Positions 4,288 to 25,290 of a stretch of 33,568 nt of DNA are shown here, in pieces (position 1 is the first letter of the stretch; every line of letters begins with the position of its first letter). Both the position numbers and the translations under genes were made by a program. The DNA comes from a plasmid: assembly GCF_988242995.1 (NCBI RefSeq), contig NZ_OZ547045.1; one strand, written 5' to 3'. Under the pieces are notes generated by a model, which did no database searches, was not told the origin of the DNA, and saw only the letters and a list, made by a program, of their open reading frames with translations.

Positions 4288-6924
4288 TCACGCTGCGAGT
4301 ACAGATTTAAAGTAGGATTCGAGCCATTTATCAGGGGTATCATCCCCAATTTGCTCAATGATTTTCGCCAGTGTTTCGGCGTTTTGTGGTTCCCCTGACA
4401 GGATGCTAAGTATCTTGTCCAGCTTCCTGAAGTTCTCAGGCGTCTTAACGCGCGGGGCCAGGTTGAATTGCGCCATCGCACTTTGACTACCTTGTTTCAC
4501 AAGGAACTGGCGGGAGTTCTCAGGAATAGACAACAGCGCGTCAAACTCTGCCGGTGTCAGCTTGAGACGGGTTACGTAGTCCTCATAATCCGCATCCGGG
4601 TTTTCCAGAAGAATTTTAGTTACGCACTGCTGCATGATGGTTTTGCCAATGGCACTATCCAGCGCATCGTTTGGCTCTTGCGTGGAGAATACGTAAACCG
4701 CGTCTTTCTTACGGTCTGTTTTCAGGCCGCGTTTCACTTCCACCCGCATAATGGGATCGTCAAGGTACTGGTGAAACTCGTCGAATATCTGAATAACCCG
4801 GCGGCGGCCATCAATAGACTGACGCACACGGAAATTGAGATACATCAGCAGCGGTGTACGTGTTGCAGGAGGTATTTCATTATCTGCAACAATGAAATCA
4901 GTCAGGTCAAAACCGTAAATATCGTACTCACCGAGATTGAGGGAATCCGCGTCGTTATCGAACAACCACCCGTTTTCATGGCCGCGAGTCCACGGAACAA
5001 GCAACGATGCCAGCGTTTGTTTGCTACCCGCTGTTTGATATGGGTTAGGCATCTGACGCATCAACATATCCACGGTACGTAAATCCGTAGGGATAAGGGA
5101 GTTCTCATCCATCAAAGCGTCAACAGCGCGGTTAAGGTCATTCACCTGATCAGCATCGAGCACACTGCCTTTGGTAATTTCAGCACACAGGCGCATCAGG
5201 CGCTTACAAAACGCAATGTTAACTTTAGTGCCTGGCATCTGTAGAGGTGCCCACCCGGACGCAACACCTTCTTTCAAAACTGTATAGTGACCGTGTAACG
5301 CTTTAATCAGCGGCATCATGCCCTGATCACGGTCATAGGCAAAAATGCGCGGGTTATACTTCATTGATTGCGTCAGCAGGAAATTAAGCAGCGTCGTTTT
5401 ACCGGCCCCCGAACGGCCAAGCATTAACGTATGCGCCAGCGGGCGCTTACCGAAAGACATTTCATCTGCGGGCGTTACATGAAAGTTCATATACAGCGGC
5501 GTATTTGCCACAGTCTTGAACAACGTCAGTGCTGGCCCCCACGGATTATTGTTTGCTTTCCCGGACATAAAATTATGGAAAGGAGAGAAACAAAGAAAAT
5601 TCCAGCTATTCAGCGGGCAAGGGCGCGGCGATAAATGTTGATTAGCCGGGAGTTTTGCATAATAGGCCGCTTCGGAAGCTAACCCTACCTGGCTGGCGAT
5701 CAAGCCGCAATTGTTCAGCATATTTCTGGCTACACCGGCGTTTGAACGGGCCTCTTTGAGAGACTTGCCAAAGGTGTGTACCGTCAAATGATGCCAGCCC
5801 ATGATAAAGGTACGTGAAACCACGCCATCAACGGCGTCACTCATCTGGTTTATCTGCGTAAAGGACGGATCGCCTGTTTCCAGCAGCGCTTTTTGCTGGT
5901 TAGTAAGGTAAGTTCTTGCCGCTTGCTGGGACATACAGCAATACGTTTGAGTTAATACAAACTCAAACGGTGCTTCCATCAGGATATTGATTTGACCTGG
6001 TTCTGTATCAGAATCGTAATCCCGGATTTCAACGGCAGACGTGTAGCGGCGTTCGTCAGTACCGCGAATCTCGATACCATCCCCCCAAAATGAGGATATT
6101 GGGCGGGTAGTAGCTAAATATTCACGGATTCGGCCACGACAAACCGGCACTGGTGCCCACTCACCGTTAACCAGGTAATAGAGCCACTCAAGCGCTTTAG
6201 AATAGGTGTGTTGAGCACCACTAAAGACTTCTTTATCTTCCTGAATGTCCTGATATTCCACATCAGCCAGTAAATCCTCACGCAGATCGATAATGTCCTC
6301 ATCATCATCTTCTTCTGCATCTTCCTTTTTCTGCTCAGGAATGACATTCCCTCGCTTGTCGCGGAAGTAATAGCCTAAACGGTCGATGCCATAAGGACGC
6401 AGGGAGTTCATGACCTGCTCACAAACATCTTCCAACGCACCAATAGCATCAGTTTGCATTTCGCGCAGCTCGTCAGCCGATGGCTTATCAAACTTTGCCA
6501 GCATTTTTTGAGCGGCATCCCCTACCGGGTTATAAACAACCGTTAGGTAGAGGTCATTTACCATCATAGGAGTATCATCAAACTGATCGCGATAGTATTC
6601 ATTCACCATGCGCGGGAACGTCATATTGTAATGCGTGTCAGGATAATTATTAATTTCGCGGTGGTGTAAGTGAGTCCATAACTTAATATGTTCACTACCA
6701 ATACCCTTTAAAAGCTGATTTAAATCGGCATGCCACTTAATAAGTTCGGCATCAGAAGCGCAATCATGAGTTCGCCCCCGAATTTTAAATACAGAAAGGT
6801 ACTCCCCATTTACCGTACTGATAATATGAGGTGTTACATGGTAGGAGTAAGGAATATATTTTAAAGAGGATGGTTCTTTTCTGTAATCTTTAACCCCCCT
6901 CTTTTTCATTTCCGCTACGGCCAT
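4288..6924 (-). CDS. virB4: VirB4-family T4SS ATPase
   Basis: 878 aa, Walker A GRSGAGKT, characteristic size and position. Confidence 0.95.
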   Translation of the reverse strand: MAVAEMKKRGVKDYRKEPSSLKYIPYSYHVTPHIISTVNGEYLSVFKIRGRTHDCASDAELIKWHADLNQLLKGIGSEHIKLWTHLHHREINNYPDTHYNMTFPRMVNEYYRDQFDDTPMMVNDLYLTVVYNPVGDAAQKMLAKFDKPSADELREMQTDAIGALEDVCEQVMNSLRPYGIDRLGYYFRDKRGNVIPEQKKEDAEEDDDEDIIDLREDLLADVEYQDIQEDKEVFSGAQHTYSKALEWLYYLVNGEWAPVPVCRGRIREYLATTRPISSFWGDGIEIRGTDERRYTSAVEIRDYDSDTEPGQINILMEAPFEFVLTQTYCCMSQQAARTYLTNQQKALLETGDPSFTQINQMSDAVDGVVSRTFIMGWHHLTVHTFGKSLKEARSNAGVARNMLNNCGLIASQVGLASEAAYYAKLPANQHLSPRPCPLNSWNFLCFSPFHNFMSGKANNNPWGPALTLFKTVANTPLYMNFHVTPADEMSFGKRPLAHTLMLGRSGAGKTTLLNFLLTQSMKYNPRIFAYDRDQGMMPLIKALHGHYTVLKEGVASGWAPLQMPGTKVNIAFCKRLMRLCAEITKGSVLDADQVNDLNRAVDALMDENSLIPTDLRTVDMLMRQMPNPYQTAGSKQTLASLLVPWTRGHENGWLFDNDADSLNLGEYDIYGFDLTDFIVADNEIPPATRTPLLMYLNFRVRQSIDGRRRVIQIFDEFHQYLDDPIMRVEVKRGLKTDRKKDAVYVFSTQEPNDALDSAIGKTIMQQCVTKILLENPDADYEDYVTRLKLTPAEFDALLSIPENSRQFLVKQGSQSAMAQFNLAPRVKTPENFRKLDKILSILSGEPQNAETLAKIIEQIGDDTPDKWLESYFKSVLAA

Positions 6925-13068: not shown

Positions 13069-13953
13069 GTGACAGATAAATCAGTACCAGCGAAGCAGAT
13101 AAAAACGGTAAACACCGGAATCGCGATTAAAGAGAATCCCCCCAAAGGGGATGATATGGCATTCACCCATTCGATATTGTGTCAAGTTGGCCTCCCCCGC
13201 TCTAAAGTGGATGGCCGGGAGTTCATGAGAAAATCAGGCGATGCCTGGCTAGTTGTCCAGGCCGGCTGGCTTGATGAAGGAAGCGGCCCGGTAGAACAAC
13301 CGATCCCCTACGGCTCAATGCCCCGTTTAGCGCTCGCCTGGGTATCGTCGTATGCACTCCGCAAAAAGACCCGCGAAATACCGATCGGTAAGAGTGCTAA
13401 TGAGTTCCTGCAATTAATGGGTTTATCAGGCGGCGGCAGACAATACAAAACACTACGCGAACAAATGCACGCGCTGGCAGCTTGCCGGTTGCAGTTAGGT
13501 TTTAAAGGTCGTTCTTTCAACGGCCAGCCTGTAGAGCAATTCGATGCCTGGCAGAAAGACGACCAAAGCGGCCAGCTAAGTTTATGGCCGGGCGTAATGA
13601 CCCTTTCAGAAGGGTACTTTAATGGGCTGATTGATAGCGCCGTTCCTCTCGATAACCGCGCTCTGTACGCGCTAAAGGGTTCGGCATTGTCGTTAGATGT
13701 TTATACGTGGCTTGCGCATCGTCTACACCGCATCCAGGGCCGACCGATTAAACTTCACTGGATGAATTTACGGGAGCAGTTTGCGCAAGAGTATATGGGT
13801 AAAGACCCTGACAAAGATTTTAAGAAGAAATTTCTTCCAGCTCTGCGCGACGTACTGACTGTATACCCACAGGCGAAGGTGGATAAAGTCACCGGAGGGA
13901 TATTACTGTATCCGTCTCCCCCACCTATCCCGTTCAAGGAAGGAAAAAAATAG
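13069..13953 (+). CDS. repA: Putative replication initiator (RepA-like)
   Basis: 294 aa; immediately upstream of the iteron array and DnaA boxes, downstream of resolvase. Assignment is mainly by context. Confidence 0.65.
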   Translation: MTDKSVPAKQIKTVNTGIAIKENPPKGDDMAFTHSILCQVGLPRSKVDGREFMRKSGDAWLVVQAGWLDEGSGPVEQPIPYGSMPRLALAWVSSYALRKKTREIPIGKSANEFLQLMGLSGGGRQYKTLREQMHALAACRLQLGFKGRSFNGQPVEQFDAWQKDDQSGQLSLWPGVMTLSEGYFNGLIDSAVPLDNRALYALKGSALSLDVYTWLAHRLHRIQGRPIKLHWMNLREQFAQEYMGKDPDKDFKKKFLPALRDVLTVYPQAKVDKVTGGILLYPSPPPIPFKEGKK

Positions 13954-14056: not shown

Positions 14057-14370
14057 TTATCCACGTACATCCGACCCCCCTGATTACCGTACATCCGACC
14101 CCCCTTGTCGTACATCCGACCCCCTAGCTTTGTACATCCGACCCCCTAAGTCGTACATCCGACCCCCTTTTTTTGTACATCCGACCCCCTATTTTTTGTA
14201 CATTAGACCCCCTGAAAATACGTACATCAGACCCCCCCTAAACCTATAAGGTGATCTCCTGTAGGTTTCCTGTAGTTTGACCGATAGCACTTAACCTATA
14301 AATTTTGCTTCTAAGAGATCAGCCTGTATGAATGCCCTCCGATAATTTATTCAATAAAATCAGTGGATAA
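14057..14370. other. oriV: DnaA-box-like sites flanking the iterons plus an AT-rich stretch
   Basis: TTATCCACG at 14057..14065; AGTGGATAA at 14362..14370; AT-rich 14280..14400. Confidence 0.7.
14065..14240. repeat. Iteron array: 8 direct repeats of GTACATCCGACCCCC at 21-24 bp spacing (last two degenerate)
   Basis: Repeat units begin near 14065, 14089, 14110, 14132, 14153, 14175, 14198 and 14222. Confidence 0.85.
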
Positions 14371-15133: not shown

Positions 15134-15245
15134 CGCCTCAGAACCCCGTAGAGCCATTCAATCAGAAAAAAGCGGCCTCATGTACAGCTCAACCAAAATA
15201 GCCGCTTACAGAGCCATACAGCGCGTATATAACCAATATCGCCCG

Positions 15246-15690
15246 GCGGCACCGGCGCTAACGTGCCTGTAGGGGCGCTGGCCGCGCTGCGGCCATCCCC
15301 CCAACACCCGGATAAATCGCGCCCGGCCCGTCGCTACGCGCCAGCCCGCCCGCTCAACCGGGCCGTTGTGACGGGCCACTGTTCCGGCAGCGGCATCGTG
15401 TGACAGCCCGCTAAAACCGGCTTTGCAGGGAGGGGGTGGGCGCGTCTCCCGGTTTGATCCCGCAAGGCCCGGCAATTTGACCACGTCGCCCAGGTTGAGA
15501 TCGGCGCAGTTGCCTTTTATTTGTCGGCATCGGCGCTAAATTTAAGTAAATTTATCGTACTATATAATGATACTTAAAGTTGACTTTTGAGGGGGAAAAG
15601 CCTATACTTTATTTACGGTTAGCAATGGTGCTGACCGACCCGGAACCAGTGGCGGCAACCGCTCCGGGGAACTTGCGAAGGGGGCAAGAA
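15246..15690. repeat. CUP-like GC-rich repeat, copy A (5'-truncated; lacks the first ~198 bp of copies B and C)
   Basis: Near-identical to 18515..18959 and 20672..21113. Confidence 0.85.
15580..15636 (+). promoter_or_regulatory. Cassette promoter P1 (TTGACT-17-TATACT) with leader hairpin GGTTAGCAATGGTGCTGACC
   Basis: -35 at 15580..15585, -10 at 15603..15608, inverted repeat at 15617..15636. Confidence 0.7.
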
Positions 15691-16264: not shown

Positions 16265-16341
16265 ACACTTTTAAAGCCCGTAAACCGGGCTTTTTTAGTC
16301 TTTAAAGTACAATTAAAAGTAAAAAATAATGATACCAATAG

Positions 16342-16399
16342 TTGACTTATGGAGGGTGAACACCTATACTTTATTCATCGGTTAGCAATAGTGCTGACC
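16342..16399 (+). promoter_or_regulatory. Cassette promoter P2 (TTGACT-17-TATACT) with leader hairpin
   Basis: -35 at 16342..16347, -10 at 16365..16370, GGTTAGCAATAGTGCTGACC at 16380..16399. Confidence 0.7.
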
Positions 16400-16453
16400 G
16401 GCCCGGAACCAGCGGCGGCAACCGCTCCGGGCAAACTGCGAAGGAGTAATATT

Positions 16454-17337: not shown

Positions 17338-17838
17338 ATGGCTTCAAGAGGTGTTAATAAAGTAATTCTGGTCGGCAATTTAGGCCAAGATCCTGAAGTG
17401 CGTTATATGCCGAACGGCGGCGCGGTTGCCAACATTACGCTAGCCACGTCAGAAAGCTGGCGCGACAAGCAGACCGGCGAAATGAAAGAACAAACGGAAT
17501 GGCATCGCGTTGTATTATTCGGCAAGCTGGCAGAGGTCGCCGGGGAATATCTGCGCAAGGGTTCGCAGGTGTACATTGAGGGCCAGCTCAGAACACGTAA
17601 ATGGACAGATCAAGCTGGCGTGGACAAGTACACTACAGAGGTTGTCGTTAACGTTGGCGGCACTATGCAGATGTTAGGCGGTCGCCAGCAAAACGGCTCT
17701 CAGCCAGGTAATAATGAATGGGGCCAGTCGCAGCAGCCGCAAGGCGGCCAGCAGTTCAGCGGCCAGCCACAGAACACCGGCGCAGCGCCAGCGGCAGGAA
17801 ATGAGCCGCCTCCTTTTGATGATGATATTCCGTTTTAG
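17338..17838 (+). CDS. ssb: Single-stranded DNA-binding protein
   Basis: 166 aa; OB-fold N-terminus ([43 protein letters not shown]), Gly/Gln-rich linker, acidic C-terminal tail DDDIPF. Confidence 0.95.
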
Positions 17839-17961
17839 CCCTGATAAATATTTAAATGTAAATTTATTTACAGATTTATCTAAATAAATAACCGTTTTAG
17901 AGTTAACCTTCTGTAATTATTGATTAAATCGGCCCGTTTTCGGGCCGTAATGAGGTAAAAA

Positions 17962-18264
17962 ATGGCAGTAGAACGCATTTCCCCTGAAGAATGGCAGCGC
18001 ATCGCACCGGCATTGCGTACATGCAGCCAGGTAACGATCGATATGGCTTATGCCGTACTGGTTGATGGCCGTAAACAAGTAGATGTGGCGTCAGAGTTTG
18101 ACCGGTCAAAGCAAACGGTCAATGCGGCTATCAGGCGCGTTACTGCAATTTTTAACGAGGTTATCCCGGAAGATGAGCAGTTAGAATTTGTACAAGTCTG
18201 GTTGCCGCCAGAGCTGGCGAAGCAGGTAAAAGAAATGGCTAAACCGTATCAGAATAAAAAATAA
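17962..18264 (+). CDS. Small HTH transcriptional repressor, KorA/TrfB-like (possible ArdK-type regulator of the cassette promoters)
   Basis: 100 aa; AYAVLVDGRKQVDVASEFDRSKQTVNAAIRRV resembles the KorA HTH region (from memory). Confidence 0.5.
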   Translation: MAVERISPEEWQRIAPALRTCSQVTIDMAYAVLVDGRKQVDVASEFDRSKQTVNAAIRRVTAIFNEVIPEDEQLEFVQVWLPPELAKQVKEMAKPYQNKK

Positions 18265-18316
18265 CAGGAGTTATCGACATGTGTGAGTACGGATTTAAAA
18301 ACTAACTGAAAAAAAT

Positions 18317-18959
18317 CACTTATGGCGTTCCCTGCGGGGCGGGCTTTCGTGCTGCGCATCGAGCCAGGCAAGCTGTCTCGCCCCTTCGGGCTTCAATCCC
18401 TAACGCCTCCGGGCTGTCGCCCTCCGCGCTCCGCTTGACCCCCACGCCCTGCGCCGGACTTGCCCCGCCTACGGCGGCCCCGCCCCTCCGGGGTGGCTTC
18501 GCCATCCTCTGCCAGCGGCACCGGCGCTAACGTGCCTGTAGGGGCGCTGGCCGCGCTGCGGCCATCCCCCCAACACCCGGATAAATCGCGCCCGGCCCGT
18601 CGCTACGCGCCAGCCCGCCCGCTCAACCGGGCCGTTGTGACGGGCCACTGTTCCGGCAGCGGCATCGTGTGACAGCCCGCTAAAACCGGCTTTGCAGGGA
18701 GGGGGTGGGCGCGTCTCCCGGTTTGATCCCGCAAGGCCCGGCAATTTGACCACGTCGCCCAGGTTGAGATCGGCGCAGTTGCCTTTTATTTGTCGGCATC
18801 GGCGCTAAATTTAAGTAAATTTATCGTACTATATAATGATACTTAAAGTTGACTTTTGAGGGGGAAAAGCCTATACTTTATTTATCGGTTAGCAATGGTG
18901 CTGACCGACCCGGAACCAGCGGCGGCAACCGCTCCGGGCAATCTGCGAAGGTGGGAATT
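18317..18959. repeat. CUP-like repeat, full copy B (GC-rich body ~530 bp plus promoter/leader)
   Basis: Near-identical to 20474..21113. Confidence 0.9.
18849..18906 (+). promoter_or_regulatory. Cassette promoter P3 (TTGACT-17-TATACT) with leader hairpin
   Basis: -35 at 18849..18854, -10 at 18872..18877, inverted repeat at 18887..18906. Confidence 0.7.
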
Positions 18960-19780: not shown

Positions 19781-19830
19781 GGGGGGGAAATCCCCCCCTT
19801 CTACCTGAAGGGGCTACGCCCCTTTTTTTA
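19781..19830 (+). terminator. Tandem hairpins with T-run
   Basis: GGGGGGGaaatCCCCCCC then AGGGGCtacGCCCCT followed by T7. Confidence 0.7.
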
Positions 19831-19845
19831 TGCCGGTTTTATGCC

Positions 19846-20005
19846 GCTTACTTATGGCGTTCCCTGCGGGCCGGGCTTTCGTGCTGCGCATCGAGCCAGG
19901 CAAGCTGTCTCGCCCCTTCGGGCTTCAATCCCTAACGCCTCCGGGCTTTCGCCCTCCGCGCTCCGCTTGGCCTCCGGGCTTTCGCCCTCCGCGCTTTGCT
20001 TGGCC
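19846..20005. repeat. CUP-like repeat fragment D (left arm only) with an internal 33-bp tandem duplication
   Basis: Matches the left ~125 bp of copies B and C; CCTCCGGGCTTTCGCCCTCCGCGCT(C/T)(C/T)GCTTGG duplicated at 19939..19971 and 19972..20004. Confidence 0.8.
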
Positions 20006-20243
20006 TTTCCAGCCGGTGCCAGCTCCGGGCCGCGAGGATAACCGGCGGGAGGCGAACTGTCCTCCACAGCTCCCCGTTCCGTTGGATGGTCTGCCGTTCC
20101 TCCATTACCGGTATTCCACACTAGCGCGGTGTGGCGTCAATAGTTCGCTTCGCCGCTTCGCGCTATTGACCCCACCCCTTGCGCCAGTGTTACACACCGG
20201 TTGTCGGAAACGACAAACCCTCCAACTACCCTACAGGTGCTTT

Positions 20244-20348
20244 ATGGCCGAAATTCTCCAACTCCTCCCGCCGGTTATCCTCGCTATTGCAGCCCTCATC
20301 ACAGCCATCACCGGGCTAATAAAAGTCCTGAAAAGCAAGAAGAAGTAA
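20244..20348 (+). CDS. Candidate 34-aa hydrophobic peptide
   Basis: MAEILQLLPPVILAIAALITAITGLIKVLKSKKK; AGGTG 5 nt upstream; followed by a hairpin at 20354..20373. Confidence 0.35.
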   Translation: MAEILQLLPPVILAIAALITAITGLIKVLKSKKK

Positions 20349-20352
20349 CGGA

Positions 20353-20380
20353 AAGGGGCGGCAAGCCGCCCCTTTCCCCT
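20353..20380 (+). terminator. Hairpin after the small peptide ORF (weak T-tract)
   Basis: AGGGGCGGCaagCCGCCCCT followed by TTCCCCT. Confidence 0.4.
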
Positions 20381-20473: not shown

Positions 20474-21113
20474 TACTTAGGGCGTTCCCTGCGGGCCGGG
20501 CTTTCGTGCTGCGCATCGAGCCAGGCAAGCTGTCTCGCCCCTTCGGGCTTCAATCCCTAACGCCTCCGGGCTTCGCCCTCCGCGCTCCGCTTGGCCCCCA
20601 CGCCCTGCGCCGGACTTGCCCCGCCTACGGCGGCCCCGCCCCTCCGGGGTGGCTTCGCCATCCTCTGCCAGCGGCACCGGCGCTAACGTGCCTGTAGGGG
20701 CGCTGGCCGCGCTGCGGCCATCCCCCCAACACCCGGATAAATCGCGCCCGGCCCGTCGCTACGCGCCAGCCCGCCCGCTCAACCGGGCCGTTGTGACGGG
20801 CCACTGTTCCGGCAGCGGCATCGTGTGACAGCCCGCTAAAACCGGCTTTGCAGGGAGGGGGGGGGCGCGTCTCCCGGTTTGATCCCGCAAGGCCCGGCAA
20901 TTTGACCACGTCGCCCAGGTTGAGATCGGCGCAATTGCCTTTTATTTGTCGGCATCGGCGCTAAATTTAAGTAAATTTACCGTACTATATAATGATACTT
21001 AAAGTTGACTTTTTAGGGGGGAAAATCTATACTTTATTTACGGTTAGCAATGGTGCTGACCGACCCGGAACCAGCGGCGGCAACCGCTCCGGGTAATCTG
21101 CGAAGGAAAATGT
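20474..21113. repeat. CUP-like repeat, full copy C
   Basis: Near-identical to copy B over about 640 bp. Confidence 0.9.
21005..21061 (+). promoter_or_regulatory. Cassette promoter P4 (TTGACT-17-TATACT) with leader hairpin
   Basis: -35 at 21005..21010, -10 at 21028..21033, inverted repeat at 21042..21061. Confidence 0.7.
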
Positions 21114-21692: not shown

Positions 21693-21773
21693 CCTTGAAC
21701 GGCGCGGCAATACCGCGCTGTTTTTTACCCTCTATTTATGTCTTATTTTAGTATCATATTATGATACTAAATA

Positions 21774-21831
21774 TTGACTTATCAGGCCGCAAAAAGTATA
21801 CTTTATTTATCGGTTAGCAATGGTGCTGACC
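21774..21831 (+). promoter_or_regulatory. Cassette promoter P5 (TTGACT-17-TATACT) with leader hairpin but no second hairpin; upstream palindrome AGTATCAtattaTGATACT
   Basis: -35 at 21774..21779, -10 at 21797..21802, inverted repeat at 21812..21831. Confidence 0.65.
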
Positions 21832-21851
21832 GTATGCGAAGGAGTAAAGTT

Positions 21852-23095: not shown

Positions 23096-23141
23096 CTGGA
23101 TTGTGCAATCCATTTTATTGCTTATGGATTGTGCAATCCAC
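23096..23141. promoter_or_regulatory. Two copies of the palindrome GGATTGTGCAATCC in the promoter region upstream of the SprT-like gene
   Basis: Copies at 23098..23111 and 23126..23139; the same 14-mer occurs three times inside the stbA-like gene. Confidence 0.6.
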
Positions 23142-23149
23142 TTTTATTT

Positions 23150-23233
23150 TGGGCGTTCCCTGCGGGCGGGCTTTCGTGCTGCGCATCGAGCCAGGCAAGC
23201 TGTCTCGACCCTTCGGGCGTCAATCCCTAACGC
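23150..23233. repeat. Isolated 84-bp left-end module of the CUP-like repeat (copy E)
   Basis: GGGCGTTCCCTGCGGGCGGGCTTTCGTGCTGCGCATCGAGCCAGGCAAGCTGTCTCGACCCTTCGGGCGTCAATCCCTAACGC matches the first 84 bp of copies B, C and D. Confidence 0.8.
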
Positions 23234-23242
23234 AATCCAGGC

Positions 23243-23269
23243 AAAAAAAAGCGGCCCGCATGGGGCCGC
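23243..23269 (-). terminator. Rho-independent terminator of the minus-strand stb-like operon
   Basis: On the minus strand GCGGCCCcatgcGGGCCGC followed by T8. Confidence 0.7.
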
Positions 23270-23287
23270 TTCCGGTCAGGCTTTTTA

Positions 23288-23656
23288 TCAGTGCAGCAGG
23301 AACGTTATAGCCGCCGCGCCGAGCGCTCCACCAACAAAGGAACAGACAACCGTGATAATCAGTATCTGCCTGATAAGCGCTTTCGAAAACCCTGTATGCG
23401 CCCCGGCCAGACGTTCAAAAAATTGTTCGCTAACCTTCTGCTCCTTCTTCAGAGTGTTGACCAGCTCGCGCTGGCTTGCGATCACTTCTGTTTTCGCAGT
23501 CTCCGATGATTTTGCTATCGCGTCGGAGGCTTTATCCAGCCGTTCTATTGCTTCGGTAACGCTTACACTTACACTTTCCAGTTTTGAGGTGATTTCTTTA
23601 GCATCGCCTAAAAACCAGTCCATCAGGACATCTAATTTATCAGGTTGCTTTTCCAT
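23288..23656 (-). CDS. Hypothetical coiled-coil protein with C-terminal TM anchor (third gene of the stb-like operon)
   Basis: 122 aa; helical N-terminal part, hydrophobic C-terminus. Confidence 0.55.
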   Translation of the reverse strand: MEKQPDKLDVLMDWFLGDAKEITSKLESVSVSVTEAIERLDKASDAIAKSSETAKTEVIASQRELVNTLKKEQKVSEQFFERLAGAHTGFSKALIRQILIITVVCSFVGGALGAAAITFLLH

Positions 23657-24380: not shown

Positions 24381-24815
24381 TTAGAAACCTTTCTTATTAC
24401 CTACGCTACCTTTGAATGAGGTTGCGACTTTCTTTGCCTCATCACCAATTTTTTTAAAATCGGTATCGGATAAAAATTCTTTGTTCCCGCCCATATCCTC
24501 AACTAATTTTTCTGGTTCTGGATTGTGCAATCCAGTTTCCACCGGTTCCGCTTTCTCCTGCTCTTTTGGATTGTGCAATCCAGTATTTACCGTACTTTCT
24601 GGATTGTGCAATCCACCTTTTTTGCGTTTCAATCTTGCCCGGTACAAGGCCATATCTAACGCTTTCACAGTCACAGAAAAGCTGTATTCACTATCAAGAA
24701 GTTGAGCAATTTCTTGCCTACTAATACCCTTGTCTAACAAACCTTCAATCTCATCAAGACGCGCTCTTACAGCCGCAGCGAGATTGCGAGGTTCCAGTAA
24801 AAGGTCTTTTTTCAT
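24381..24815 (-). CDS. stbA: StbA-like DNA-binding protein with N-terminal HTH and C-terminal GLHNP repeats
   Basis: 144 aa; first gene of the operon divergent from oriT; three in-frame GLHNP repeats encoded by palindromic 14-mers. Confidence 0.5.
   Translation of the reverse strand: MKKDLLLEPRNLAAAVRARLDEIEGLLDKGISRQEIAQLLDSEYSFSVTVKALDMALYRARLKRKKGGLHNPESTVNTGLHNPKEQEKAEPVETGLHNPEPEKLVEDMGGNKEFLSDTDFKKIGDEAKKVATSFKGSVGNKKGF
24518..24616. repeat. Three intragenic copies of the operator-like palindrome (C)TGGATTGTGCAATCCA(G)
   Basis: Copies at 24518..24535, 24566..24583 and 24599..24616; spacings 48 and 33 bp. Confidence 0.85.
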
Positions 24816-24839: not shown

Positions 24840-25290
24840 CTATATGGCAGCCTGTTTTAGCTGTCAATCGGTTTTTGTAGTATTTCAGTAGTATTCCTGT
24901 AGTAATTCAGTAGTAACGCTTGTCGATACCGCTCATTTTTGTAGTATATCTGTAGTAATGGCTATTTCAGTTTGTAGTATTTTAGTAGTAATTCAGTAGT
25001 ATCGGTGTAGAAAACTTTCATGCAAGCATGAAAGTGGTGAATGTGAACGCTTTTTGAGCGTTTTATGCGTGTGTAAGACCTGTTTCTCCCTTAAAAAAGG
25101 CGTGTTATGGTATCCCTTAATGGCTATACACCATACGCAATTACGATTTTCATCGTAAATGCTTGAAAACAAAACAAATTATTCTAATTTGTGTTTTCAT
25201 ATGTAATACACTACGTATTACATATGTGTGTCTAAGCCGCATATATGCTAGATTTAACTGTATTACATCGGTATTACATCAAGGAAACCC
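24840..25290. other. oriT region: 11-bp direct repeats, inverted repeats and a putative nic site
   Basis: About 10 copies of (T/A)GTAGTA(T/A)(T/A)nn in 24876..25010; IR ACTTTCATGCaaGCATGAAAGT (25014..25035); IR CATATGTAATACactacGTATTACATATG (25198..25226) followed by GTGTGTCT|AAGCC. Confidence 0.65.

What the first reader, a model, noticed from the sequence alone, without database searches (positions are those of the whole stretch)
18317..18848. GC-rich repeat bodies with a modular, independently dispersed 84-bp left-end unit
Two full copies of about 640 bp (18317..18959, 20474..21113), a 5'-truncated copy (15246..15690), a left-arm fragment carrying a 33-bp tandem duplication (19846..20005) and an isolated 84-bp left-end module (23150..23233) are present. 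The bodies are far more GC-rich than the plasmid and sit upstream of the cassette promoters, so they are probably not transcribed with the genes. The truncated and partial copies suggest these repeats act as recombination substrates. The 84-bp unit has complementary termini (GGCGTT ... AACGCC) and recurs alone, suggesting a discrete structural or recombination module.
Basis: seen in the sequence. Interest (0 to 1): 0.5.

Follow-up and report, generated by a model that had tools for sequence, protein, structure and literature searches.

The report
Conserved folded DNA unit in CUP repeats
The repeats are the known "CUP" promoter repeats of IncN plasmids, but their 84-base left end is one copy of a structure-conserved cloverleaf found in the first-transferred region of very different conjugative plasmids and integrative elements, where it may help the incoming single strand become double-stranded.

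Summary
The window is the leading region of an IncN-family plasmid. The ~640-bp repeats are CUP (conserved upstream repeat) elements, already described for pKM101/R46: the right part holds a near-consensus promoter (TTGACT-17-TATACT) and leader. What appears to be new is the 84-nt left unit. Four copies lie in the window, all on the + strand. Homologues occur in R46, R388 (IncW), R751 (IncP-1, inside oriV), an IncK plasmid, Pseudomonas, Xanthomonas, Aeromonas and Pandoraea plasmids, and Burkholderiales/Stutzerimonas chromosomal elements. 92.7% of cells pair, against 34-44% in slid controls, and 20 of 30 pairs show compensatory changes. No Rfam family matches. Copies are always co-oriented, on the relaxase-gene strand, even between oppositely oriented genes. 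Loops and DNA folding energies favour the complementary, transferred strand (GNA/GNNA mini-hairpins, as at G4-type priming sites). My best reading, which is inferred and untested, is a single-strand initiation signal that primes complementary-strand synthesis across each promoter-gene cassette. A sense-strand RNA element is the main rival. Recombination at CUPs is real but secondary.

The parts
18323..18408 (+). 84/86-nt cloverleaf unit, copy 1 (left end of full CUP copy c). Closing stem 18324-18329/18402-18407. Bulged hairpin P1 18330-18338. Inner stem GGG/CCC 18341-18343/18398-18400 plus TT/AA 18345-18346/18395-18396. Hairpin Pa GTGC-TGC-GCAT 18349-18359. Hairpin P2 18360-18380. Hairpin P3 CCC-TTC-GGG 18382-18390. 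The proposed working strand is the complement (the transferred strand).
   Evidence: Covariance model hit of 91.3 bits, E = 5e-19; covariation.
18405..18437 (+). 33-nt 3' extension unit: variable hairpin P4 (GGGC-TGTC-GCCC) followed by the conserved motif CCGCGCTCCGCTTG.
   Evidence: Present in 51 of 80 distinct homologues, with 21 different stem sequences. It varies in copy number between plasmids.
18438..18808 (+). G+C-rich, C>G body of CUP copy c. Its sequence is conserved only within this IncN subgroup. It is a string of short G+C hairpins whose loops read G..A on the complementary strand.
   Evidence: Composition; only 92 plasmid records cover at least 80% of the repeat; hairpin-loop census.
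18809..18959 (+). Promoter-proximal part of CUP copy c. -35/-10 TTGACT-N17-TATACT at 18849-18877. Conserved leader hairpin at 18909-18938. The ccgAII-like gene starts at ATG 18960.
   Evidence: (family D5). The leader hairpin is shared with the R388 ardC leader. Gene name taken from pCFSAN004085.
19855..19940 (+). Cloverleaf unit, copy 2. It lies 22 nt after an intrinsic terminator of the upstream operon (19807-19833).
   Evidence: 92.6 bits; terminator.
19937..20006 (+). Tandem array of the 33-nt extension unit: 2.1 copies here and 8.1 copies in pCFSAN004085.
20480..20565 (+). Cloverleaf unit, copy 3 (left end of full CUP copy d, 20474-21113). Promoter at 21005-21033.
   Evidence: 93.3 bits.
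23151..23235 (+). Isolated cloverleaf unit, copy 4. It lies between the stbC terminator (23247-23273, minus strand) and the start of the SprT-like gene (23113, minus strand), so it is antisense to both neighbours.
   Evidence: 83.3 bits. The same position and orientation are seen in R46 and in Pseudomonas pMOS94.
15243..15690 (+). 5'-truncated CUP copy a: body from the position equivalent to 18512, plus promoter 15580-15608. It has no cloverleaf unit.
16302..16444 (+). Promoter-only CUP copy (promoter 16342-16370), upstream of the DUF945/DUF932-ssb operon.
   Evidence: (D3, D5).
21734..21832 (+). Promoter-only CUP copy (promoter 21774-21802).
   Evidence: (D5).
25121..25138 (-). nic-like site GCGTATGGTGT/ATAGCCA in oriT. 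It sets the transferred strand as the window's minus strand, with the leading region at descending coordinates.
   Evidence: 15 of 18 matches to the R388 nic region, recalled from memory. Gene layout stbABC / oriT / relaxase operon.

Best explanation
The ~640-bp repeats are IncN CUP elements. Each is a composite of (i) an 84-nt cloverleaf unit with an optional 33-nt hairpin extension, (ii) a G+C-rich spacer made of short hairpins, and (iii) the ArdK-regulon promoter and leader. The cloverleaf unit belongs to a widespread family found in the establishment (leading) regions of proteobacterial conjugative plasmids and integrative elements. I propose that it works as folded single-stranded DNA on the transferred strand, which is the complement of the strand as read in the window. 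The most likely role is a single-strand initiation (priming or primosome-assembly) signal. Because each unit lies upstream of its promoter in gene sense, it enters the recipient just after its promoter-gene cassette. A primer laid there would be extended back across the spacer, promoter and genes toward oriT. That would turn the ordinary double-strand CUP promoters into active duplex DNA early, before any ArdK repressor exists. Shown here: the repeats, the family, the fold, the co-orientation and the loop/energy asymmetry. Inferred: which strand works, and priming itself.
For: Family and fold. The left ~110 nt match 1717 plasmid records, 1527 of them conjugative. A core pattern found more than 120 genomic stretches, and the model gave 88 hits at E <= 0.01 in the first 100 sequence sources searched. 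92.7% of cells pair against 34-44% in slid controls. 20 of 30 pairs show compensatory changes, and 0 of 500 shuffles reach the observed values. RNAalifold on an independent MAFFT alignment gives the same helices.

Polarity. Every locus with 2-4 copies has all of them co-oriented; I count 27 such loci. The unit lies on the relaxase-gene strand in the window, pCFSAN004085, R46, R388, R751, pMOS94 and P. syringae p107. That puts its complement on the transferred strand.

Independence from local transcription. The copy between stbC and the next gene is antisense to both neighbours. It is nevertheless conserved in the window, in R46 (that plasmid's best-scoring copy) and in Pseudomonas pMOS94. Copy 2 lies just after an intrinsic terminator. 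The R751 copy lies beyond the trfA terminator, among the oriV iterons. Units lie 300-700 nt upstream of the promoters in IncN and IncW, so they are not in the downstream mRNA.

Strand. With DNA parameters the complementary strand folds better in 69 of 75 instances, by 2.4 kcal/mol on average. Terminal loops read G..A (GNA/GNNA) on the complementary strand in 15/48 (P1), 71/79 (Pa), 26/43 (P2) and 30/52 (P3) cases, against 3, 0, 3 and 0 on the + strand. In the G+C-rich spacers, G..A-loop hairpins number 35 on the complementary strand and 7 on the + strand, against 4.4 and 3.3 in shuffles. GCGNAGC/GCGNNAGC mini-hairpins are hallmarks of G4-type priming origins and ssiA, and they bind SSB poorly (PMC13037366).

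Context. ssi/Frpo signals are known from F, R6K, R100, ColE1, ColE2, ColIb and RSF1010 (PMC7690428), but none is reported for IncN or IncW in the texts I read.
Against: No experiment bears on priming. Counts of G.U against A.C over all modelled pairs favour the + (mRNA-sense) strand, 129 to 41. Only after dropping three junction- or loop-adjacent pairs does this become 32 to 40. P1 loops often start with G on the + strand. In R388, and in integrative elements where genes form long co-oriented arrays, the unit directly follows a stop codon with no terminator, so it is certainly transcribed there. In Burkholderiales elements it is followed by a conserved ~200-nt leader running to a ribosome-binding site, which looks like an RNA leader. 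No conserved DnaG start triplet (CTG) lies in the conserved part of the complementary strand. The sequences are related to one another, so the counts are not independent events. The transferred-strand assignment rests on a nic similarity recalled from memory plus the general rule that the relaxase operon enters last.
Confidence: 0.4

Rival explanations
1. The unit works as RNA in the sense orientation. It is transcribed at the 3' end of the upstream operon or between cistrons. There it could define and protect a 3' end, possibly together with Rho-dependent termination in the C-rich spacer, insulate the next ArdK-controlled promoter, or bind a plasmid or host RNA-binding protein.
For: G.U exceeds A.C by 129 to 41 over all pairs. 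Pair 59-80 is G.U in 62 sequences, G-C in 11, A-U in 4, and never A.C. cUUCGg-type loops occur in P3. The unit starts at or within 60 nt of the upstream stop codon in R388, pMOS94 and the window. The spacer is C-rich and G-poor, like a Rho entry site. In Burkholderiales elements a conserved leader continues to the ribosome-binding site of DUF2958/RadC-like genes.
Against: The copy next to stbC is antisense to both flanking genes, yet it is conserved in three diverged plasmids. No credible promoter reads into it. Copy 2 and the R751 copy lie downstream of intrinsic terminators. Loops are U..C on this strand, which is not a known stable RNA loop class, but G..A on the complement. No Rfam family matches.
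Confidence: 0.27
2. The unit is mainly a recombination or mobility module. It would be either a cassette-boundary site used by homologous or site-specific recombination, or a small non-autonomous repeat that spreads (REP/MITE-like). Its fold would be needed for that reaction, for example recognition of a single-strand hairpin by an HUH enzyme.
For: The unit sits at the boundaries of gene cassettes that differ between plasmids. Copies within one plasmid are nearly identical, while plasmids differ. It occurs alone, with the extension only, or with the full CUP. CUP-mediated inversion and deletion are reported in IncN2 plasmids (PMC5371602). The 33-nt unit expands and contracts.
Against: There are no target-site duplications or terminal inverted repeats beyond the closing stem. 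The unit is confined to conjugative-element establishment regions, with 1-4 copies, always co-oriented, and is not genome-wide. No recombinase co-occurs consistently. Indel ends between the two closest plasmids lie outside the unit. Homology alone does not select for compensatory base changes.
Confidence: 0.13
3. The unit is a double-stranded binding site for a plasmid regulator or partition-type protein (ArdK/KorA/TrfB-like, StbA, ParB-like), or the repeats are remnants of a duplicated coding gene.
For: A TrfB/ArdK-like gene is present in every plasmid examined that carries the unit. The core bases are almost invariant.
Against: Extensive compensatory covariation in five helices, with variable-length hairpins, is not expected of a duplex protein site. 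The known ArdK sites lie at the promoter, not here (PMC6289460). No conserved ORF is present: homologues differ by a 62-nt length change, and the unit lies in unannotated intergenic DNA in all annotated records.
Confidence: 0.05

Closest known systems
CUP (conserved upstream repeat) elements of IncN plasmids pKM101/R46 (Delver & Belogurov 1997, J Mol Biol 271:13; cited in PMC6289460 and PMC5371602)
   Same: Repeated elements at the 5' ends of the ccg/ard operons of the leading region. They carry a strong promoter under ArdK control and are known to recombine with each other. The cloverleaf unit is also found in R46: in two intergenic regions of its ccg/ard leading region, and between stbC and the next gene.
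   Different: The texts I could read describe CUPs as ArdK sites plus promoters. None mentions a structured left-end unit, its covariation, or its presence outside IncN. This plasmid's body shares only the left ~180 nt (75% identity) with the R46 CUPs. I could not read the 1997 paper itself.
Single-strand initiation signals (ssi; G4-type and phiX174/PriA-type) and single-strand origins (sso) of rolling-circle plasmids
   Same: Orientation-dependent folded single-stranded DNA made of several G+C hairpins with GNA/GNNA mini-hairpin loops. They lie on the strand that needs a complement. Known ssi lie in leading regions and near vegetative origins, and the R751 copy lies in oriV.
   Different: No sequence homology to any ssi was tested or is known. 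The fold is a four-way junction with a near-invariant core rather than one to three independent hairpins. Priming activity is untested.
Frpo / ssi1-3 and class 2-3 single-strand promoters of F and IncI1 plasmids (Masai & Arai 1997; PMC11541004; PMC12672017)
   Same: Non-coding structured elements upstream of leading-region operons that are templated by the transferred strand. They are thought to give both early expression and primers.
   Different: Those are long stem-loops that rebuild -35 and -10 boxes. The unit is 66-77% G+C, has no -10-like sequence, lies 300-700 nt upstream of an ordinary duplex promoter, and no inverted copy of the promoter exists.
Integron attC sites
   Same: Structure-conserved, sequence-variable, strand-specific folded single-strand sites at cassette boundaries, whose folding is favoured by conjugation.
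   Different: The unit has no R/L box arrangement: its termini read GTT...AAC, the reverse of the attC order. It is a branched fold, not an imperfect hairpin. It has a near-invariant core and no associated integrase.

Membership tests
IncN CUP element | Dispersed direct repeat upstream of leading-region (ccg/ard) operons of an IncN-type plasmid | tested here: met
   Repeat families D1-D5. The closest relative, pCFSAN004085, is typed IncN replicon, MOBF, MPF_T, with ccgAII, ArdK-family, ssb and stbABC.
IncN CUP element | Carries a strong sigma-70 promoter directed at the downstream operon | tested here: met
   TTGACT-N17-TATACT, 10 of 12 matches, at five copies. This is a consensus match only; activity was not measured.
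IncN CUP element | ArdK-binding site overlapping the promoter | not tested
   The 13-nt consensus is shown only in figures of PMC6289460 and PMC5371602. An ArdK-family gene is present at 17962-18264, by transfer of annotation.
IncN CUP element | Sequence homology to the R46/pKM101 CUPs | tested here: met
   Left 180 nt are 75-81% identical to two R46 sites. The model finds three R46 copies at 56-73 bits. The middle of the body is not homologous.
Frpo-type single-strand promoter | Long stem-loop that reconstitutes -35 and -10 hexamers in the folded transferred strand | tested here: not met
   No inverted repeat of at least 30 nt in 14-25 kb. The unit is 66-77% G+C with no -10-like hexamer. The promoters present are ordinary duplex promoters.
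Frpo-type single-strand promoter | Sequence similarity to Frpo/ssi1-3 | not tested
   No reference sequence was fetched.
ssi / primosome assembly or G4-type priming signal | Stable folded structure on the strand that must be copied, with SSB-resistant GNA/GNNA mini-hairpins | tested here: met
   Loop census and DNA folding energies favour the transferred strand. Properties of mini-hairpins from PMC13037366. The wobble counts do not agree.
ssi / primosome assembly or G4-type priming signal | Supports primer synthesis and complementary-strand synthesis (M13 ori-minus rescue, or in vitro with DnaG, PriA or RNA polymerase) | not testable with these tools
   Needs an experiment.
Any Rfam 15 RNA family | Match to a curated covariance model | tested here: not met
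   No hit at gathering score in the window or in 8 other loci. Nothing at the units at E <= 1. Only noise on the 161 nt alone, best CRISPR-DR36 at E = 0.23. ARAGORN finds no tRNA.
REP/MITE-type dispersed repeat | Many copies across a genome in both orientations, with terminal inverted repeats or target duplications | tested here: not met
   1-4 copies per locus, always co-oriented, in regions of conjugative elements.

The most novel reading that the evidence does not exclude
The cloverleaf unit, with its hairpin-rich spacer, is a previously unrecognised and widespread class of single-strand DNA establishment signal. It would be the counterpart of Frpo/ssi in IncN, IncW, IncP-like and Pseudomonas/Burkholderia plasmids and integrative elements. 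It would punctuate the leading region into cassettes, each primed for complementary-strand synthesis as soon as it has entered the recipient. This would couple DNA entry to timed early expression of anti-restriction, SSB and other establishment genes.
Probability: 0.3. Interest if true: 0.85.

Novelty: new variant of a known kind. Interest (0 to 1): 0.62.

Why it matters
How plasmids without Frpo-type promoters or their own primase (IncN, IncW and many environmental plasmids and integrative elements) convert the entering single strand into duplex DNA and switch on early anti-defence genes is an open question. Leading regions are under active study (PMC11541004, PMC12672017). A sequence- and structure-conserved, strand-specific element gives a concrete target for deletion, inversion and in vitro priming tests. 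It is shared by major resistance-plasmid groups and positioned at each early-gene cassette. It is also a marker for finding leading regions and transfer polarity in unannotated elements. It further explains why CUP repeats carry a G+C-rich, seemingly useless upstream part. If it proves to be an RNA instead, it is a new widespread structured RNA of mobile elements.

Tried and rejected
Single-sequence folding of the unit on either strand did not differ from shuffles (z between -1.7 and +0.2). Only comparative analysis showed the fold.

Rfam (four searches) and ARAGORN gave nothing.

G.U against A.C counting was meant to fix the working strand, but its answer depends on three junction- or loop-adjacent pairs.

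An automatic search for the closing stem by best 6-mer complementarity failed in this G+C-rich DNA and was replaced by a covariance model.

NCBIfam and PHROGs named few neighbouring genes: SSB, RadC, ParB-like and TIGR03299 only.

Literature searches for a prior description of the unit found none. One search term (STAXI) was wasted on psychology papers. The nic sequence of IncN plasmids could not be found in the text of PMC2943615.

Rejected readings:
- attC site: wrong order of termini and a branched fold.
- Frpo-type promoter: no -35/-10.
- Coding remnant: a 62-nt length change in 92%-identical homologues, and unannotated intergenic positions.
- REP/MITE: restricted and co-oriented.
- Duplex protein site: covariation.
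- A sigma-70 promoter reading into copy 4: no acceptable hexamers on reading 23097-23150.

Full report
**1. What is there.** The window is the backbone of an IncN-family conjugative plasmid. The region 14-25 kb matches about 34-kb IncN plasmids at about 91% identity. It is collinear at 97-99.6% with Salmonella plasmid pCFSAN004085, typed IncN, MOBF, MPF_T.
- Two full ~640-bp copies, 18317-18959 and 20474-21113, 99% identical.
- A 5'-truncated copy, 15243-15690.
- A left-arm fragment, 19846-20005, with a 33-nt unit repeated 2.1 times.
- An isolated 84-nt unit, 23151-23235.

The bodies are 65-70% G+C against about 47% elsewhere. Each ends in a near-consensus promoter, TTGACT-N17-TATACT.

**2. 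The repeats are CUP elements.** The position upstream of the ccg/ard operons, the promoter, and the homology to R46 identify them as the "conserved upstream repeats" described for pKM101/R46. The homology consists of 75-81% identity over the left 110-190 nt and three model hits in R46. The reference is Delver & Belogurov 1997, as cited in PMC6289460 and PMC5371602. Those papers treat CUPs as ArdK-binding sites plus promoters. They also report CUP-CUP recombination: an inversion in p0801-IMP and a 5.2-kb deletion in p271A.

**3. The left-end unit is something more.** A sensitive search with the body alone matched 1717 plasmid records, 1527 of them conjugative. Outside the closest IncN relatives only the left ~110 nt matched. 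The hosts included Pseudomonas, Burkholderia, Xanthomonas, Aeromonas and Pandoraea, plus IncI-gamma/K plasmids of E. coli.

In annotated records the match is intergenic and lies among typical establishment genes: ssb, DUF932, DUF3560, kleA, yacAB and TrfB-like regulators. It is co-oriented with them.

About two thirds of the listed matches carry the full unit. These are mostly in Burkholderiales and Stutzerimonas, in regions encoding RadC and large ParB-like proteins typical of integrative conjugative elements. The rest are chance matches in high-G+C genes.

**4. Structure.** It is followed by a bulged hairpin of variable length (P1) and an inner stem. In the inner stem GGG/CCC alternates with GCG/CGC, and TT/AA with TG/CA. 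These enclose three hairpins:
- Pa: GTGC-TGC-GCAT, replaced by GGGC-TGC-GCCC in a subfamily.
- P2: base CGAG/CTCG, or CGTG/CACG in the subfamily, with a variable top.
- P3: CCC-loop-GGG.

RNAalifold on a plain MAFFT alignment predicts these helices, with 11 of 27 pairs compensated. I built a covariance model from 21 sequences. It found 88 hits at E <= 0.01 in the first 100 sources searched and more in later searches.

On the alignment of the 88 hits, 92.7% of cells pair against 34-44% when the partners are slid. 20 of 30 pairs have compensatory changes, in 298 cells, and no shuffle out of 500 reaches the observed values. That alignment was fitted to the model, which inflates the numbers somewhat. 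The independent alignment agrees.

About two thirds of units (51 of 80) carry a 3' extension: a covarying hairpin followed by YSCGCRCYNYGYTTR. In the window this is the 33-nt unit. It is present 2.1 times here and 8.1 times in pCFSAN004085.

No Rfam 15 family matches the unit on either strand, and no tRNA is called.

**5. Distribution in reference plasmids.** The model finds the unit in:
- R46: three copies.
- R388 (IncW): two copies, with Pa lengthened.
- R751 (IncP-1 beta): a degenerate copy inside the oriV region, next to iterons and beyond the trfA terminator.
- Pseudomonas pMOS94: three copies.
- An F-type Aeromonas plasmid: two copies.
- A Xanthomonas plasmid: one copy.

R388 has the full CUP-like layout upstream of ardC. 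The unit comes directly after the upstream stop codon, then about 470 nt of C-rich spacer, then the promoter. The leader hairpin that follows (GACCCGGAAC.AGCGGCGGCAACCGCTCCGGG) is shared with the IncN CUPs.

**6. Polarity.** A nic-like sequence lies on the minus strand at 25138-25121. With the order stbABC / oriT / relaxase operon, this makes the minus strand the transferred strand and the leading region the descending coordinates. The nic comparison rests on my memory of the R388 site.

All four window units lie within 7 kb of oriT on the leading side. In every multi-copy locus the copies are co-oriented; I count 27 such loci. In all seven plasmids where a relaxase gene is in view, the unit is on the relaxase-gene strand. 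Its complement is therefore on the transferred strand.

This orientation does not follow local genes. The copy between stbC and the next gene is antisense to both neighbours. It is nevertheless conserved at the same place in the window, R46 and Pseudomonas pMOS94.

Copy 2 lies 22 nt after an intrinsic terminator.

**7. Which strand folds.** The evidence is mixed.

For the sense strand: G.U pairs outnumber A.C by 129 to 41. This reduces to 32 against 40 once three junction- or loop-adjacent pairs are left out.

For the transferred strand:
- It folds better with DNA parameters in 69 of 75 instances, by 2.4 kcal/mol on average. With RNA parameters the count is 48 to 25.
- Hairpin loops read G..A (GCA, GAA, GACA, GTCA, GAGA, GCAA, GAAA) on that strand far more often than on the other, including in the freely varying hairpins P1, P2 and P4.
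- In the G+C-rich spacers of eight elements, G..A-loop hairpins number 35 on the transferred strand and 7 on the other. Shuffles give 4.4 and 3.3.

cGNAg and cGNNAg are the extraordinarily stable DNA mini-hairpins. They are found at the priming origins of phages G4, St-1 and alpha3 and at ssiA, and they bind SSB poorly (PMC13037366).

**8. Mechanism proposed (inferred).** On the transferred strand, a unit enters the recipient just after its own promoter-gene cassette. A primer made at the unit would be extended toward oriT, across the spacer, promoter and genes. This would create the duplex that the ordinary CUP promoter needs, at a time when no ArdK repressor is present.

The idea accounts for five observations:
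- the upstream position of the unit;
- the fixed polarity;
- the oriT-proximal copy, which would prime across stbCBA up to the nick;
- the copy in IncP oriV, since known ssi signals often sit near vegetative origins;
- the hairpin-rich spacer.

ssi/Frpo signals are documented for F, R6K, R100, ColE1, ColE2, ColIb and RSF1010 (PMC7690428). Further hairpin promoters were recently mapped in IncI1 (PMC12672017). The unit is not of that promoter type, because it has no -35/-10 boxes.

I give this reading 0.4. The main rival, at 0.27, is a sense-strand RNA element: a 3'-end or intercistronic structure, perhaps acting with Rho-dependent termination in the C-rich spacer. It is supported by the wobble counts, by units that abut stop codons, and by the conserved leader that follows the unit in Burkholderiales elements. 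A recombination or mobility module (0.13) and a duplex protein site or coding remnant (0.05) fit the data less well.

**9. Verdict.** The composite repeat is a known element (CUP). Its 84-nt left unit is a real, discrete, structure-conserved module of wide distribution. I found no description of it in Rfam or in the searchable literature. I could not read the 1997 CUP paper. Its function is unproven.

Noticed in passing
window 20244-20348 (+), with hairpin 20350-20377: A 34-codon ORF encodes a hydrophobic peptide with a basic tail, MAEILQLLPPVILAIAALITAITGLIKVLKSKKK. It lies about 300 nt downstream of cloverleaf copy 2 and is followed at once by a perfect 12-bp G+C hairpin. It resembles a small membrane toxin of type I toxin-antitoxin systems. 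PHROGs gave only weak hits (E = 0.01-0.02).
   Followed up: partly
window 23097-23112, 23125-23140, 24519-24534, 24567-24582, 24600-24615: Five exact copies of the 16-bp palindrome TGGATTGTGCAATCCA, against 0 expected. Two lie upstream of the SprT-like gene and three upstream of stbA, so this is probably an operator for a shared repressor. R46 has a different palindrome (GTGACTGTCAC) at the equivalent place.
   Followed up: partly
window 24874-25002: Arrays of an 11-bp direct repeat (GTAGTATTTCA-like) lie between the stbA promoter and the nic-like site. They resemble the StbA-binding direct repeats known next to oriT in R388 (from memory).
   Followed up: no
window 14064-14236: About 7.7 copies of a 21-22-bp repeat (CGTACATCCGACCCCCTAGATT) lie just downstream of the replication protein gene (13069-13953). 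These are presumably the iterons of the vegetative origin.
   Followed up: no
window 18909-18938 (and the equivalent positions in the other CUP copies); L128 (R388) about 23500-23545: The CUP leader contains a hairpin, CCCGGAACCAGCGGCGGCAACCGCTCCGGG, that is conserved almost base for base in the ardC leader of the IncW plasmid R388. This is a second conserved non-coding element, this time inside the 5' untranslated region.
   Followed up: partly
window 18279-18305: An 8-codon mini-ORF (MCEYGFKN) with a good AGGAG ribosome-binding site lies between the ArdK-family gene stop (18264) and cloverleaf copy 1.
   Followed up: no
L055, L029, L058, L070, L075, L098, L119, L017, L044, L035, L103 (Burkholderiales contigs), the ~200 nt after each unit: A second conserved non-coding block (GGCTGGCTTGCTGTTCCCTTCA...GGTCTCGGGCAATCCCGCCC) follows the unit. 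It runs to the ribosome-binding site of DUF2958-like (MTKLITDEQR...) or other genes, and it contains motifs reminiscent of the unit itself (GTCTCG, CAATCCC).
   Followed up: partly
window 18375-18404, minus strand: The complementary strand of the unit (GUUAGGGAUUGAAGCCCGAAGGGGCGAGAC) weakly resembles CRISPR repeat family DR36 in Rfam: 15.8 bits, E = 0.23, far below the threshold of 38. This is probably chance.
   Followed up: no
L001 6296-6610 versus window 18281/18282: pCFSAN004085 has an extra 315 bp ending 40 nt before cloverleaf copy 1; the record annotates a 342-nt ORF (6293..6634) across it. The window instead has an extra 54 bp just after the end of ssb (17838-17891).
   Followed up: partly
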